From NCBI RefSeq assembly GCF_041248615.1, contig NZ_CP158426.1: a stretch of 64,000 nucleotides of DNA. One strand, given 5' to 3'. Origin of the DNA: Escherichia coli. GTDB taxonomy: Bacteria; Pseudomonadota; Gammaproteobacteria; Enterobacterales; Enterobacteriaceae. Positions 15,001 to 21,000 of the stretch are shown piece after piece (the first letter of the stretch is position 1; every line of letters begins with the position of its first letter). Made by a program: the position numbers.

Positions 15001-18000
15001 GATTAAAACTCATCTTCTTCACCCTGCTGTCGGTTTCGACCGTTGCGGCGCTGCAAACGGTTGGTGCCTTTCTGGTGATCTGTCTGGTGGTGACTCCCGG
15101 TGCAACAGCATGGTTGTTAACCGATCGTTTTCCCCGCCTGCTCATGATTGCTGTAACTATTGGCAGTGTAACTAGTTTCCTCGGCGCGTGGGTCAGTTAC
15201 TTTCTGGACGGCGCGACAGGTGGAATCATCGTGGTGGCGCAGACACTGCTGTTTCTTTTAGCATTTGTCTTTGCGCCCACCCATGGGCTTTTGGCAAATC
15301 GTCGGCGTGCGCATAAGGCGCTGGAGGATCGCTCATGATGGCATTATTACTGGAGCCACTGCAGTTCACCTTTATGAGTCACGCACTGCTGATTTCACTG
15401 GTAGTTTCCATACCCTGTGCGCTGCTGTCGGTCTTTCTGGTCCTGAAAGGTTGGGCACTGATGGGTGACGCGATGAGTCATGCGGTTTTTCCTGGAATCG
15501 TGCTTGCCTGGATTCTGGGGTTACCTTTGGCTACAGGGGCATTCGTCGCCGGAGTATTCTGCGCGGTGGCGACGGGATACCTGAAAGACAACAGCCGAAT
15601 CAAGCAAGATACAGTGATGGGGATTGTTTTTTCTGGCATGTTTGCCGCAGGTCTGATCTTGTATATTGCAGTCAAACCAGACGTACATCTTGACCATATT
15701 CTTTTCGGCGACATGCTCGGGATAACCATCGGCGATATAATCCAGACGATGATTATTGCCGGGCTGGTTACACTTGTTATTAGCGTAAAATGGCGGGATT
15801 TTTTGCTGTTCAGCTTTGATTATCAACAGGCGCAGGTAAGCGGTTTGCATACGAGATGGCTGGAGCCTGTACATAGATTTGTGTAATTGCCTGATTTTGA
15901 TATGTTCAATCCAGCATCAAATGAAGGTTAATTTATGGACGAAAAACAGTTACAGGCTCTGGCTAACGAACTGGCCAAAAACCTCAAAACCCCTGAAGAC
16001 CTCAGTCAGTTTGATCGGCTGCTGAAAAAGCTCAGCGTTGAAGCCGCTCTCAATGCAGAGATGACACACCATCTTGGGTATGAGAAAAATCAGTCCAGAC
16101 CAGGAGCTAACTCCCGCAACGGTTATTCCACAAAGACCGTTATCACAGGCGACGGTCCACTGGAACTGCGTACTCCGCGCGATCGTGACGGTACCTTCGA
16201 ACCACAACTGGTAAAGAAAAATCAGACCCGTATTACCGGGATGGATAACCAGATCCTCTCGTTGTATGCCAAAGGGATGACCACCCGTGAGATAGCCGCT
16301 GCGTTCAAAGAACTGTATGACGCAGATGTTTCACCGGCACTGATATCAAAGGTTACCGATGCCGTGATGGAGCAGGTTGTAGAATGGCAAAACCGACCAC
16401 TGGATGCTGTTTACCCCATTGTTTATCTTGACTGTATCGTCCTGAAAGTTCGGCAGGACAGTCGCATCATCAACAAATCGGTGTTCCTGGCACTGGGCAT
16501 CAATATCGAAGGTCAGAAAGAACTGCTGGGTATGTGGCTGGCCGAAAATGAAGGGGCGAAGTTCTGGCTCAATGTGCTGACTGAACTGAAAAACCGCGGT
16601 CTGAACGATATCCTCATCGCCTGTGTGGATGGCCTGAAAGGCTTCCCGGATGCCATCAACACAGTATATCCGAAGGCCCGCATCCAGTTATGCATCGTGC
16701 ATATGGTGCGCAACAGCCTGCGCTTCGTGTCATGGAAGGACTACAAAGCCGTCACTCGCGACCTGAAAGCGATTTATCAGGCTCCCACGGAAGAGGCAGG
16801 TCAGCAGGCACTGGAAGCGTTCGCTGCGGCCTGGGACAGTCGCTATCCTCAGATAAGCCGAAGCTGGCAGGCTAACTGGCCGAATCTTGCCACGTTCTTC
16901 GCTTATCCAACGGACATCCGCAAAGTGATCTATACGACGAATGCCATCGAGTCGCTAAACAGCGTGATCCGCCATGCGATCAAAAAGCGTAAAGTGTTCC
17001 CGACAGACGACTCGGTGAAAAAAGTGGTGTGGCTGGCAATCCAGTCTGCGTCCCAGAAATGGACGATGCCGTTGAAGGACTGGCGAATGGCAATGAGCCG
17101 CTTTATTATCGAGTTCGGTGACCGCCTGGACGGTCACTTCTGAGAAAAGGCATTTACACAGAATCCTAAACAGGCTCGATGGCTGCATTATGGGCTGCTG
17201 TGCATGGTCTCTCTGACCATTGTGGCGACGCTGAAAGCGGTAGGTATCATTCTCTCCATTTCTCTGCTCATTGCGCCTGGCGCCATTGCGGTACTCCTGA
17301 CACAACGCTTTCATATTGCGCTCCTACTGGCGACTGGCATATCGGTAATAGTGTCAATGACTGGTGTCTGGTTGTCCTTTTTTATCGACAGCGCACCAGC
17401 TCCGACGATTGTCGTCTTATTCGCGGTTTTGTTCATCATGACGTTTGCCGTTACCAGCATCAACGCACGCAAAAAGGGAAACTCCCATACACAGGATCTG
17501 TTATCACCCAATTAGCACAACATCCGAGGACAGCAACACCCGATACTTTTTCCTGGCTTCCAGCAACGGGGTTTCTTCCTCCGTTGCATATACAGCTCAC
17601 CTTTTTTCACCCACGATTAACCAACAGCCAGACCAGCAGACACGCCACCACCGGCACAGCAAAATCCATCAGGCTTGCCACATCCCAAGCTCGCGGATCA
17701 AAACCGCCCCACCACGGCATATTCATTCGCTTGCCATGCCCGAACATTTCAATCCAGCGATATTCTGCCTGGGTATGTTCACGCGCAATGAAGAACGTAC
17801 AACCGGCTATCGCTCCGTAAGCCCAGTTTCCGGTAAAAAGACCAACCAGTATCTGCGCAGCCACAGCACAAAGCGCATGAAGTAAGGGGCTTATATCCAT
17901 TATTTCCTCCTTTCAGCTCCATTCCCGAAGCGGTGTTTCCAGCTCCACGACATAATCAGAGAATACAGAAACATCAAACAAGTCATCAAGAATGCGAATG

Positions 18001-21000
18001 TTGACAAAATAACCGTCATTCCGGACACAGACAGGTTCTCCCTCTTCTGTTACCCCTGTTTCTGTGTAGGTGAAACCAATTTCATCGACTAACAGTTTAT
18101 TCTGGAGGTCTTCATCCTCCTCCCAGTCAAGAGATGACAGGAAGGCCTTAAACTGCAGTTTGTCATGAAACTTCAAAGTTAAATCTTTCATACGACCTCT
18201 TTTAATTGCCTGTCATTTAATTCTTTATGCCATATGCGGAAATTGCGAATATGGCCAAACAGATGTCGTTCTCCAGTATTCGTCTGCCCTCCAAATCGGA
18301 TATTTTTATCAGCGGTCACACCATTATATTCACAATAAACTTCATTAACCGCTTTACCATTTGTCACCACATGAAAGTGACCATCAGCTTTTGCAATACA
18401 TCCAAATGTGGTTTTCTCTGCAAATACATCTGTCGCTGCGCTATTAACATACAAGCCTGAAGGGTTTGACAGACTCATATATAACTTACCACTACCTCTG
18501 TTGATTGCTGCAATTGCTGATTGCCCGGTATTGGCTGCTGCTATATCCCACACGCGGGGTGCGGCGTTTGGTGCAATATCCCAGTTTTTATGAATCTCAA
18601 GTAAAAAAGTAAATGGTAACTTATAAAGATTATTTCTGGTGGGGATACTAACCAAATCACTGGCTCTTGTCGTTGCGCTGCCTCCTGAAATAATAAATGA
18701 TGATACACACGGCCCATTCTCTACTTGTGGGGTGGCAAGATAAATATAGTCACCAGATACTGTTGCCCCACCCCGCTCAGGAGAATACTGTATCTGAGAG
18801 CCTATTTTTAACTCACCATCAATTGCCTGAATCGTTGCCTCTGCAAAAATCCAGCCTGTGGTCTTATCCTTCCTGACTCGTGCCGTAATTCTGCCGGCAG
18901 CCCCACCTGTCATATTAATTTCAAGCGTTTGCGTATCAATGTACGCATCGCCAAGAAAAGTTGTTGCACTACCATCATACTTATCAAACCGTATACGTAA
19001 CCTTACCTGTCGTTCTGTTTTAAAACGGCATGAGGTTGTCACGTACTTGTTATCGCCTGAGACATCAACTGACTTTGTTGCAGCAATTGATGCCATATTA
19101 ATAGCCGAAGTTTGCCCAACCAGAGAATCGTTGCAGACAAACTTTCCATAAGTAAAACCAAAACTATCTGTCCCGGTTTCGGGCACATCCATGTTTGATG
19201 ACTTCCCCCAGCTGGCTGGACTTTCCGAATTGAGCATGTAGTTCGTTCTTTGTCCCTCAATAAGCAGGCCATCACACTCAAATCGCGGCTCATTAATTTC
19301 CGCCGTTTTCAGTTCGCCAGATTTGTTGATATATGTTGCCGTTGATGCGCGACTGAAATTAACCTGTTTATCACTGGCGACCTGAACCACATCGTCACCA
19401 ATAGCTATTTTTTTATAGCCCGGAGAAAAACCCGCAATCATATCCAGTGAATCGTTAAACGGTATCCACACATCAGGCAGCGGCGGCACTATATTCGCAT
19501 AGGGCTCTGCAGTCACTTCCGCTGCGACTTCTGCGCGGTCTGCCGCCTTTTCAGCCCGTGTCGCTGCCGACAGAGCCTCATCCTTTTTCTGCCCGGCCTT
19601 TGTTGCGTCTGCTGCGGCCTCCCGCGCTTTTGTGGTGGCGACTCCGGCATTTTCAGCGGCTGACTCTGCATTACGGCGGGAAGCCTCTTCACTGTCTGCG
19701 GAGGCTTCTTCTGACGCACGGGCATTTGTCTCTGAACGTTCTGCCGCTGTTGCTGCGTTTTGTGCGGCTGTTTTTGAAGAAGCTGCCGCTTTCGCGCTGT
19801 TACCTGCATTCGTCTCTGATGTTTTCGCCGCATTCCTGGACGATGCCGCTGCTGTTTCTGATTTCTTTGCTGCCGCTGCGCTCTGAGAGGCGGCTTCAGC
19901 GTTGCGTGCCACCTCTTCCACCATCTTTTCAAAACGATACAGTGCCTCCGGACGAACATCATCTTCTGTTGCAGCGCCCAGAAAATCATTCAATGTCCCC
20001 GGCTTAGAATCCTCATACACGGTGATGGCCCCGGCATGTGAAGGCGGAAAACCTTCAACCAGCAGGATAACGCTGTACTGGCCATACTCGACATCCATGC
20101 TGTAACGTCCGGCTTCATCCGGATTTTCTGAGGCCACCGTGTTCACCACAACCGTGGTGCTGTTACGTTTTGCTTTGAGCTGAATGGTGCAGTTCTGTAT
20201 CGGTTTTCCTGCACCGTCTTTCAGCACGCCTGAAATCTGTACTGCCATATTCACTCCACAAATAAAAAAGGCGCCATTTCTGGCGCCCGTATCTGGGTTA
20301 TAAAATTCAGCTAATCGTGATGCCTGCAGTGGCTTTCTTCATCACAACAACAAGAAGGTCACTGATACTGGTTGTTGGCGTCCAGTTATTTGCACCATAT
20401 GAAGAAACATTGAACGTCAGGGTGACATTCCCGTATCCCGCGGGCATATCAATCACCGATGAAAATACCCTGCTGACATCTGTCGCGGGCTCATGAAAGA
20501 TTTCCTGTCCGTTCTTCAGTACCTGCAGTTTACAGGTTGAATACCAGTATGACTGTTGGTTCTTACTGTTGAAATTCTGATGTTTCATCCCGCGAAAAAG
20601 CACCGGGGGAATGATAATCTGCCGGTCGAATCCCTGATCATCGTAAACAGTGACGGTTATCGTGCCACTGGCATAGCTGTTATTACGGGGAAAGGCTTTC
20701 CCCACAGTCTTCACCAGGTCGCCTTCAATCTGGCTGGCAGACAGTTTTCCCAGAACCCGACAGTTCTCGTTAATCGTGACGTTGTTGAGCGAGCCCGAAT
20801 TCGCATTCACGTTACCACTGATATCGGCATTTTTCGCCGTCAGACGCCCGTCCGGTGTCAGGGAAAATGCCGGGGGATTGCCGGATGAGGTGATACTCAC
20901 CGCAAACAGTCGCTTCATGAAAACATCATTCATGAACAGCTGATCACCCTGAGCCACAAACAAAGGTGTTGTATTGCCATTTTCCGGGTTAATCATCGCA

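What the first reader, a model, noticed from the sequence alone, without database searches (positions are those of the whole stretch)
17607..18191. Two small orphan genes between the tail fibre and the sit cargo
A 92-aa acidic ORF overlaps the side tail fibre stop (possible fibre chaperone) and a 97-aa membrane protein follows. Lambda has tfa here, which neither resembles, so these may be replaced fibre-assembly factors or further morons.
Basis: inference. Interest (0 to 1): 0.25.

Follow-up and report, generated by a model that had tools for sequence, protein, structure and literature searches.

The report
Tail-fibre partner gene plus membrane gene
The two small genes after this prophage's side tail fibre are real, widely conserved phage genes: the first always travels with this type of fibre and probably helps build it, and the second is an unrelated small membrane protein that temperate phages carry just after their host-recognition genes.

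Summary
Both ORFs exist exactly as described. ORF-A is 17913-18191 (-), 92 aa, pI 4.1, and its ATG overlaps the fibre's TGA. ORF-B is 17607-17900 (-), 97 aa, with three predicted hydrophobic helices. They are not orphans. They match phrog_1361 and phrog_1443, are 100% identical to phage 21 genes 23 and 24, and evolve under purifying selection (dN/dS 0.1-0.4).

ORF-A lies within 60 nt of the end of the galectin/LamG-type fibre C-terminal module in 131 of 131 testable loci. These include virulent T5-like, T1-like and 9g-like coliphages and a myovirus-like context. It has no sequence or fold similarity to lambda Tfa or any other annotated family. Best reading: a dedicated trans-acting assembly or accessory factor for this fibre type.

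ORF-B spreads independently (about 1,940 homologues, reaching Aeromonas and Comamonas). It sits directly after the last receptor-binding gene of temperate sipho-, myo- and podoviruses whatever the fibre type. It is absent around the virulent phages that carry ORF-A. Best reading: a host-envelope or exclusion-type accessory gene, not a fibre factor.

A 20-codon relic of lambda-type tfa lies just after ORF-B, so this cassette replaced stf-tfa. No function has been shown experimentally for either gene.

The parts
18188..20254 (-). Side tail fibre S (688-aa ORF from GTG; identical to the phage 21 side tail fibre). It has a lambda-Stf-type N-terminal attachment domain, an Ala-rich shaft, and a C-terminal module of about 430 aa with a GTA-spike-fibre-like domain and a Laminin_G_3/galectin-like domain.
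   Evidence: PF08400 at aa 3-133 (E 1e-68) and Laminin_G_3 at aa 562-683. NF048003 at aa 331-531. phrog_1419. Uninterrupted ORF, identical to phage 21 Stf. No Peptidase_S74 domain.
17913..18191 (-). ORF-A: 92-aa acidic soluble protein (phrog_1361), the obligatory downstream partner of the S C-terminal module. Proposed trans-acting fibre assembly or accessory factor.
   Evidence: ATGA start/stop overlap with S and an AGAGG ribosome-binding site. pLDDT 90.7 alpha/beta fold. Adjacent to S in 131 of 131 testable loci. dN/dS 0.13-0.58.
17905..17912 (-). Shine-Dalgarno sequence AAAGGAGG of ORF-B, in the 12-nt gap after ORF-A.
   Evidence: Read directly from the sequence. No sigma-70-like promoter in 17900-18200 on this strand, so B is expected to be co-transcribed with S and A.
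17607..17900 (-). ORF-B: 97-aa three-helix membrane protein (phrog_1443) with the invariant motif REhTQAEYRWI...G.R..MPwwGGFD.
   Evidence: phrog_1443 E 2e-58. Alignment A2. AF2 pLDDT 89.9, helices 4-23, 26-53 and 74-96. 1,940 homologues. dN/dS 0.11-0.49.
17528..17587 (-). Relic of the 3' end of a lambda-type tail fibre assembly gene (tfa codons 156-175). It marks the right-hand junction of the S-A-B replacement cassette and is cut short by the sit island.
   Evidence: tblastn with lambda Tfa gives 80% identity over 20 aa, E 4e-4. Translation is ATEEETPLLEARKKYRVLLS. A longer relic (aa 156-194, about 85% identity) lies 25-26 nt after B in at least 33 other loci.

Best explanation
The region is the 3' end of a lateral (side) tail-fibre cassette that replaced the lambda-type stf-tfa pair in a phage-21-like prophage.

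ORF-A is the dedicated partner of the galectin/LamG-tipped fibre module.
- It is translated by coupling from the fibre's stop codon (shown).
- It most likely acts in trans on the fibre's C-terminal module. It could be a folding or trimerisation chaperone that may stay on as a cap or docking piece. This would take over the job Tfa does for lambda Stf (inferred).
- In many related phages a second fibre protein (T) with a conserved N-terminal peptide is encoded right after ORF-A. That gene is absent here.

ORF-B is a separate gene family.
- It encodes a small inner-membrane protein that temperate phages of all three tail types carry directly after their last receptor-binding gene. It is co-transcribed with that gene (shown).
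- It most likely acts on the host envelope, for example by excluding superinfecting phage or altering a conserved envelope component, and not on fibre assembly (inferred).
For: Gene reality and identity:
- Coordinates, ATGA overlap and ribosome-binding sites; purifying selection.
- 100% identity to phage 21 genes CPT_21_23 and CPT_21_24.

ORF-A and fibre linkage:
- A lies within 60 nt of the S module's end in 131 of 131 loci that have at least 300 nt downstream, covering 103 distinct S/A combinations.
- This includes 16 divergent metagenomic phages whose S module is only about 30-50% identical and a myovirus-like context with baseplate genes after A.
- Remote homologues from the exhaustive search also follow a Laminin_G_3 protein with overlapping or abutting start and stop.
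- The same S-A pair occurs in virulent phages IrisVonRoten (T5-like), tonn (Drexlerviridae) and JenP1 (Queuovirinae).
- The genes after A differ between lineages, while S-A stays constant.
- S has no intramolecular chaperone domain, whereas the T proteins checked in the HannyBb type do carry Peptidase_S74.
- No intact tfa is in the window; only a 20-codon relic after B.
- A is kept under purifying selection in loci that lack T.

ORF-B independence:
- Its homologues follow a P22-type tailspike, a pectate-lyase-like tailspike, P2-type collar fibres, a Tfa-like DUF4376 protein and a J-like fibre. One stands alone in an Aeromonas chromosome.
- B identity does not track A identity (rho -0.10).
- B is absent within about 4-5 kb of A in the virulent and divergent loci.
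Against: - No experiment or complex prediction was possible, so binding of A to S is inferred from synteny only.
- A identity correlates only moderately with S identity (rho 0.40-0.48). Some loci pair a 90%-identical A with a 40-50%-identical S module, so any recognition must use conserved fibre features.
- A is followed by a second fibre gene in most lineages. That fits a structural adaptor role equally well.
- For B, no defence-system model matches and fold searches were uninformative.
- B has no promoter of its own. It is translationally coupled to late structural genes in some phages, which argues for late lytic expression, not lysogenic expression.
Confidence: 0.55

Rival explanations
1. 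ORF-A is a structural junction or adaptor protein of the virion, not a chaperone. It would sit at the C-terminal end of the proximal fibre S and form the docking site for the N-terminal peptide of a distal fibre protein T. This resembles the small junction proteins of the T4 long tail fibre. In this prophage T has been lost and A is left in place.
For: - A second fibre gene follows A in most lineages: 31 of 64 informative loci in the first scan. It also lies upstream of B in 93 of 124 B-centred loci.
- T proteins of HannyBb, JenP1, IrisVonRoten and tonn share only their first ~35 residues, as expected for a common docking peptide.
- Humolli et al. 2025 (PMC11990801) model the IrisVonRoten T-shaped fibre as attached to the proximal fibre, the S homologue. 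The GenBank record names the A homologue 'tail fiber protein'.
- A folds as a stable globular domain with a conserved C-terminal tail of lower confidence.
Against: - A is retained, intact and under purifying selection where no T exists: phage 21 type, mEp460, L005, and the L099 myovirus-like locus.
- The paper assigns no role to the small protein.
- No virion proteomics was found.
Confidence: 0.25
2. ORF-B works late in the lytic cycle together with the receptor-binding proteins. It might keep progeny from being trapped on debris by shutting down display of surface glycans, or it might act in another membrane step tied to release. It would not be a lysogenic-conversion or exclusion gene.
For: - B starts 3-39 nt after, or overlaps, the upstream fibre, tailspike or chaperone gene in unrelated phages.
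- B has no promoter of its own here.
- In phiHAP-1 and an Aeromonas P2-like prophage it lies inside the tail gene cluster.
- The partner receptor-binding proteins with recognisable domains are glycan-binding or glycan-cleaving types.
- B's very high conservation across genera (about 60% identity) suits a conserved host target.
Against: - B is absent near S-A-T in the virulent phages examined. The full-length homologues listed in the phage collection are mostly in lambdoid, P22-like or other temperate phages.
- B also occurs alone in bacterial chromosomes.
- In P22-like phages it occupies the classical conversion locus between tailspike and integrase, once next to an O-acetylase.
Confidence: 0.25
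3. Both ORFs are cargo (morons) unrelated to the tail fibre, acquired with or like the neighbouring sit genes.
For: - They lie at the prophage's cargo end next to sitABCD.
- Neither matches any annotated functional family.
- Many IMG/VR prophage predictions end right after B.
Against: - mEp460_4F5 has S-A-B without sit.
- A is present in virulent phages and always abuts S.
- The tfa relic separates B from sitD.
- This reading may still hold for B alone, which is already part of the best explanation.
Confidence: 0.04

Closest known systems
Lambda Tfa / Mu gpU / P2 gpG tail fibre assembly proteins (Pfam Caudo_TAP, PF02413)
   Same: A small protein encoded immediately downstream of the side tail fibre gene. 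ORF-A occupies the slot from which tfa was displaced, and a relic of tfa remains after ORF-B.
   Different: No sequence relationship (hhalign probability 0.06%). ORF-A is half the size (92 versus 194 aa). It has an unrelated compact alpha/beta fold. It partners a galectin/LamG-tipped module, not the lambda/Mu-type fibre tip.
Alteromonas phage V22/A5 tail fibre with its cognate downstream chaperone ('transient chaperone caps'; Gonzalez-Serrano et al. 2023, PMC10579305)
   Same: A fibre plus a small downstream partner moves as one cassette between phages of different tail morphology. That is the pattern seen here for S-A across sipho- and myo-type contexts.
   Different: Homology between ORF-A and those chaperones was not tested. 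That paper reports that its chaperones resemble intramolecular chaperone domains, whereas ORF-A's best fold matches are weak and generic. Function was shown there by experiment and not here.
IrisVonRoten (Bas32) lateral tail fibre locus gp22-gp23-gp24 (Humolli et al. 2025, PMC11990801)
   Same: Direct homologues: gp22 = S (proximal fibre with a C-terminal galectin-like domain) and gp23 = ORF-A (47.8-48.9% identity class), in the same order with overlapping stop and start.
   Different: IrisVonRoten has a third gene, the T-shaped distal fibre gp24, which is missing in the window. It has no ORF-B. The paper gives no function for gp23.
Receptor-binding-protein-adjacent exclusion or conversion genes of phages (T5 llp, phi80/N15/T1 cor, P22/Sf6 gtrABC and oac)
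   Same: ORF-B shares their position directly after the receptor-binding gene. In P22-like phages it lies in the tailspike-integrase conversion locus, once beside an O-acetylase. This comparison rests partly on my own knowledge of those systems.
   Different: ORF-B is not a lipoprotein. The N-terminal Cys11 is not conserved and has no lipobox context. It matches no Pfam, NCBIfam or PADLOC model. It stays about 60% identical while the neighbouring receptor-binding proteins are unrelated, so it cannot be receptor-specific in the way Llp and Cor are.

Membership tests
Tail fibre assembly protein, Tfa/Caudo_TAP (PF02413) | Sequence match to the family profile | tested here: not met
   No PF02413 hit for ORF-A or ORF-B at E<=1. 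hhalign of the A family against lambda Tfa gives probability 0.06%. BLASTP finds nothing meaningful.
Tail fibre assembly protein, Tfa/Caudo_TAP (PF02413) | Encoded immediately downstream of, and co-expressed with, the fibre gene it serves | tested here: met
   ORF-A has an ATGA overlap with S and is adjacent in 131 of 131 loci. This supports 'works like', not membership.
Tail fibre assembly protein, Tfa/Caudo_TAP (PF02413) | Required for folding or trimerisation of the fibre tip | not testable with these tools
   Needs co-expression or deletion experiments.
PHROG phrog_1361 (unknown function) | Full-length profile match | tested here: met
   ORF-A: E 8.1e-42, residues 1-91 on profile positions 1-91 of 92.
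PHROG phrog_1443 (unknown function) | Full-length profile match | tested here: met
   ORF-B: E 2.4e-58, residues 1-96 on profile positions 1-96 of 97.
Intramolecular chaperone fibres (Peptidase_S74, PF13884) | C-terminal autocleaving chaperone domain in the fibre itself, which would make a trans factor unnecessary | tested here: not met
   S has no PF13884 hit. The second fibre proteins of related loci (HannyBb type) do have it.
Moron (Hendrix/Juhala sense) | Own promoter and terminator, allowing expression from the repressed prophage | tested here: inconclusive
   No sigma-70-like promoter lies upstream of B on its strand, and no terminator-like hairpin after it. This is a consensus scan only. 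Expression data were not available.
Moron (Hendrix/Juhala sense) | Present or absent among otherwise similar phages, independent of neighbouring structural genes | tested here: met
   This holds for B: absent in 5 of 64 informative S-A loci, absent near A in the virulent phages, and present next to unrelated receptor-binding proteins. It does not hold for A.
Known anti-phage defence or exclusion proteins (PADLOC-DB) | Profile match to a catalogued defence protein | tested here: not met
   No hit for A or B at E<=1.
O-antigen conversion proteins (GtrA-type flippase, acyltransferase) | Pfam match to GtrA or Acyl_transf_3 families | tested here: not met
   The only hit for ORF-B at E<=1 is a sub-threshold PhoR match (14.9 bits against a cut-off of 27.1).

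The most novel reading that the evidence does not exclude
Two undescribed functional families sit here.

(1) ORF-A would be the founding member of a new class of trans-acting partner, either a chaperone/cap or a junction piece. It would be indispensable for galectin/LamG-tipped lateral fibres in lambdoid, T5-like, T1-like, 9g-like and myovirus-type phages. Any engineering swap of this receptor-binding module would then have to carry ORF-A along.

(2) ORF-B would be a widespread, receptor-independent inner-membrane effector of temperate phages of all three morphotypes. It would target a conserved envelope step, either DNA entry or undecaprenyl-linked glycan display. That would make it a general superinfection-exclusion or surface-remodelling mechanism unlike Cor, Llp, Gtr or Oac.
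Probability: 0.3. Interest if true: 0.6.

Novelty: new variant of a known kind. Interest (0 to 1): 0.38.

Why it matters
Lateral tail fibres decide which strains a phage can reach, and they are the part most often swapped in host-range engineering. If ORF-A is needed to make or complete the galectin/LamG-tipped fibre, it must be moved together with that module. It is at present annotated only as 'hypothetical protein', including in phage 21 and in model-collection phages such as IrisVonRoten and JenP1.

ORF-B is one of the most conserved small genes at the receptor-binding end of temperate phage genomes. An identical copy is present in E. coli Nissle 1917 and in many extraintestinal pathogenic strains. 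Its role is unknown. An exclusion or envelope-remodelling function would affect phage susceptibility of these strains.

The tfa relic also gives a clear record of how a whole fibre cassette replaced stf-tfa by recombination.

Tried and rejected
- **Profile searches against PDB sequences.** Nothing for A, and one insignificant hit for B.
- **Giant-protein hits.** The exhaustive search returned large proteins (PKD, TPR and Ig repeat proteins). Pfam showed these to be spurious repeat matches, so they were discarded.
- **Search with a divergent alignment.** The divergent A alignment was too variable for the search for related loci. I searched with the fibre module instead.
- **DT57C LtfA/LtfB branched fibres.** Considered as the model and rejected. 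Both carry intramolecular chaperones, and no small ORF is described there.
- **Other papers.** The Eligo lambda-STF engineering preprint and the Hf4s paper held nothing on these genes.
- **Accession searches.** Searches for the protein accessions, and for phage 21 together with sitABCD, found no paper.
- **Allele-level co-variation.** Co-variation of A with a particular sub-domain of S was tested and is only moderate, because the loci are mosaic. I make no claim about which part of S binds A.
- **B as part of the sit cargo.** Rejected: mEp460_4F5 has B without sit, and the tfa relic lies between B and sitD.
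Full report
**What is in the sequence**

On the minus strand, a 688-aa ORF (18188..20254) is followed by a 92-aa ORF (17913..18191, here ORF-A) and a 97-aa ORF (17607..17900, here ORF-B).
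- ORF-A's ATG overlaps the upstream TGA as ATGA and is preceded by AGAGG.
- ORF-B starts 12 nt after ORF-A's stop, behind AAAGGAGG.
- ORF-A is acidic: pI 4.10, with 22 Asp+Glu against 8 Lys+Arg.
- ORF-B is hydrophobic at both ends.
- sitD ends at 17515 on the other strand.

The large ORF is a side tail fibre, here called S.
- It has the lambda-Stf-type N-terminal domain (PF08400, E 1e-68) and an Ala-rich shaft.
- Its C-terminal module of about 430 aa carries a GTA-head-spike-fibre-like domain and a Laminin_G_3 domain.

The window is identical to E. coli NRZ14408 (NZ_LT599825.1), and S is identical to the phage 21 side tail fibre.

**Not orphans, and real genes**

- ORF-A matches phrog_1361 (E 8e-42) and ORF-B matches phrog_1443 (E 2e-58). 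Both families have unknown function.
- Neither protein has a Pfam, NCBIfam or PADLOC match.
- The 801-bp stretch is 100% identical to phage 21, where the genes are CPT_21_23 ('hypothetical protein') and CPT_21_24 ('putative membrane protein').
- The same stretch is found in many functional lambdoid phages. About 1,120 of 5,426 complete E. coli genomes, Nissle 1917 among them, hold at least 80% of it.
- Pairwise dN/dS against homologues is 0.13-0.58 for A and 0.11-0.49 for B.

**ORF-A belongs to the fibre**

A word-indexed search found A only in Escherichia and Shigella. An exhaustive profile search then found proteins of 85-110 aa down to about 30% identity. They share the motifs MKDL.LKF, G(Y/W)(H/F)VN.R and P.R.WA. 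The giant-protein hits in that search are repeat artefacts.

Three remote homologues traced to contigs each sit directly after a large protein with a Laminin_G_3 C-terminus, with start and stop overlapping or abutting. Their C-terminal 430 aa align with S, for example at NFSRASTATYI, EPRFE, GLLIEG and RNFRIWH.

I then searched IMG/VR with the S C-terminal module, once ranked by the window's sequence and once by a remote one.
- ORF-A lies within 60 nt of the module's end in 131 of 131 loci that have at least 300 nt of downstream DNA. The other 18 loci are cut off by contig ends. These make 103 distinct S/A sequence combinations.
- Sixteen of the loci are divergent metagenomic phages.
- In one type, baseplate W and J genes follow A, which points to a myovirus-like tail.

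In the GenBank phage collection, 145 records encode an A homologue.
- They include virulent phages: T5-like IrisVonRoten (gp22-gp23-gp24), Drexlerviridae tonn, Queuovirinae JenP1 and Dhillonvirus members.
- In the three virulent records examined in detail (IrisVonRoten, tonn, JenP1), A directly follows the lateral fibre gene.

The gene after A differs between lineages.
- Examples are a 343-aa fibre with a Peptidase_S74 chaperone, a Phage_tail_C_2 fibre, a Gly-rich protein, baseplate genes, or nothing.
- The coliphage second-fibre proteins (T) share only their first ~35 residues.

**What ORF-A probably does**

S has no intramolecular chaperone domain. The window contains no intact tfa. ORF-A is kept under purifying selection even where no second fibre follows it: phage 21 type, mEp460_4F5, L005 and L099.

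A fibre gene with a small, translationally coupled, always-linked downstream partner is the classical signature of a cognate assembly factor. A fibre-plus-chaperone cassette shared across phage morphotypes has been shown experimentally in Alteromonas phages (PMC10579305).

I therefore rank 'trans-acting assembly/accessory factor of the galectin/LamG-tipped fibre' first. This is inference from synteny.

ORF-A is not a member of the Tfa family.
- Its predicted structure is a compact beta-alpha-alpha-beta4 domain (pLDDT 90.7).
- The viral structure library holds only uncharacterised look-alikes.

The main rival is that A is a structural junction piece on which the distal fibre T docks. Humolli et al. 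2025 model the IrisVonRoten T-shaped fibre as attached to the proximal fibre (the S homologue). They assign no role to the small protein.

A's identity tracks S's identity only moderately (rho 0.40-0.48). Some loci combine a 90%-identical A with a 40-50%-identical S module. If A binds S, it must therefore recognise conserved features of the fibre.

**ORF-B is a different story**

The family has about 1,940 members. All members listed are about 75-146 aa (most 95-103 aa) and stand alone. They occur in Escherichia, Salmonella, Citrobacter, Enterobacter, Leclercia, Klebsiella, Aeromonas and Comamonas, at about 60% identity.

The family has an invariant core: D2, H8, Q16, C34, R40-E41-x-T-Q-A-E-Y-R-W-I, G56, R58, M-P, G-G-F-D68, W72, D79, P83 and C87. 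AlphaFold2 predicts three helices (4-23, 26-53, 74-96; pLDDT 89.9). Fold matches are generic.

Its neighbours are informative. B follows:
- a J-like fibre in a Comamonas prophage;
- a pectate-lyase-like tailspike in Enterobacter and Leclercia prophages;
- a P2-type collar fibre in Aeromonas prophages;
- a tail fibre assembly protein in Halomonas phage phiHAP-1, ahead of the sheath gene;
- a DUF4376 protein;
- the tailspike in P22-like coliphages, just before the integrase, once beside an O-acetylase.

B also stands alone in an Aeromonas rivipollensis chromosome and in a metagenomic contig.

Among the E. coli loci:
- B follows A directly in 28 loci and follows the second fibre in 31.
- B is absent from 5 of 64 informative loci.
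- In 124 B-centred loci, the gene immediately upstream is A (15), T (93) or another gene (14). Two further loci have no upstream ORF. The 'other' group is mostly fibre-related, with a few small unannotated ORFs and an IS1 insertion.

B is absent within about 4-5 kb of A in the virulent and divergent phages. Its identity is uncorrelated with that of A.

B is therefore not a factor for this fibre. It is a portable gene tied to the position just after the receptor-binding genes of temperate phages, and it is co-transcribed with them. No promoter of its own was found.

I rank a host-envelope or exclusion role first and a late-lytic role second. Neither is shown.

**A relic of the displaced tfa**

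tblastn with lambda Tfa finds ATEEETPLLEARKKYRVLLS (Tfa aa 156-175, 80% identity, E 4e-4) at 17587..17528 (-), just after ORF-B.
- In at least 33 other loci a longer relic (aa 156-194, about 85% identity) starts 25-26 nt after B.
- The cassette [S C-terminal module - A - (T) - B] therefore replaced stf-tfa, with its right-hand junction inside the 3' end of tfa.
- In this window the sit island cuts the relic further.

**Verdict**

- The genes are already catalogued as hypothetical proteins, and the general kind (a fibre with a cognate small partner; an accessory gene next to the receptor-binding genes) is known.
- The families themselves are uncharacterised and unrelated to the known examples.
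- Interest is moderate.

Noticed in passing
window 17528-17587 (-); frame runs about 17596 to 17504: A 20-codon relic of the lambda-type tfa 3' end sits directly after ORF-B. Other loci keep a 39-codon version 25-26 nt after B. In the window the relic ends where the sit island begins (sitD stop codon at 17513-17515).
   Followed up: yes
window 15335-17515 (+); transposase 15935-17143: sitD is split by an IS1414 (IS256-family, PF00872) insertion. Only one of 5,426 complete E. coli genomes (NRZ14408, NZ_LT599825.1) has this junction, and the window is identical to it. The Sit transporter is probably inactive in this strain.
   Followed up: partly
window 18188-20254 (-): RefSeq/PGAP annotates the fibre as a 417-aa CDS plus an N-terminal pseudogene fragment and leaves the Ala-rich repeat region unannotated. 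The ORF is in fact uninterrupted and identical to the phage 21 side tail fibre. This looks like an annotation artefact.
   Followed up: yes
L003 5413-6444 (-), L165 4789-5844, L163 5289-7013, L164 4792-5466: The second fibre proteins encoded after ORF-A homologues share only a conserved N-terminal peptide of about 35 aa (M(A/V)T.T.IP.DIT.LKSDV...). Their receptor-binding ends are unrelated. This looks like a common docking peptide for a branched fibre.
   Followed up: partly
L003 4259-4849 and IMG/VR loci such as L037, L055, L056: In HannyBb-type loci a second tfa fragment lies about 1 kb beyond ORF-B. HannyBb itself also carries a DNA invertase gene there. This is probably the remains of an invertible tail-fibre segment of the Mu G / e14 P type.
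   Followed up: no
window 20307-24215 (-): The J (central fibre) protein is 1,302 aa here against 1,160 aa in phage 21. It contains an internal duplication: the motif [13 protein letters not shown] occurs at aa 918 and aa 976.
   Followed up: no
window 20269-20288 (-): A G+C-rich hairpin followed by a T-run (terminator-like) lies between J and the side tail fibre gene. A terminator is annotated at the same place in phage 21. Transcription of S-A-B would then depend on late antitermination or read-through.
   Followed up: no
IMG/VR loci L171-L245: In 24 of 75 loci the held DNA ends within 12 nt after ORF-B. In the ones I looked at this coincides with the end of the IMG/VR contig. Prophage-prediction tools therefore seem to treat B as the last phage gene before cargo or host DNA.
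   Followed up: no
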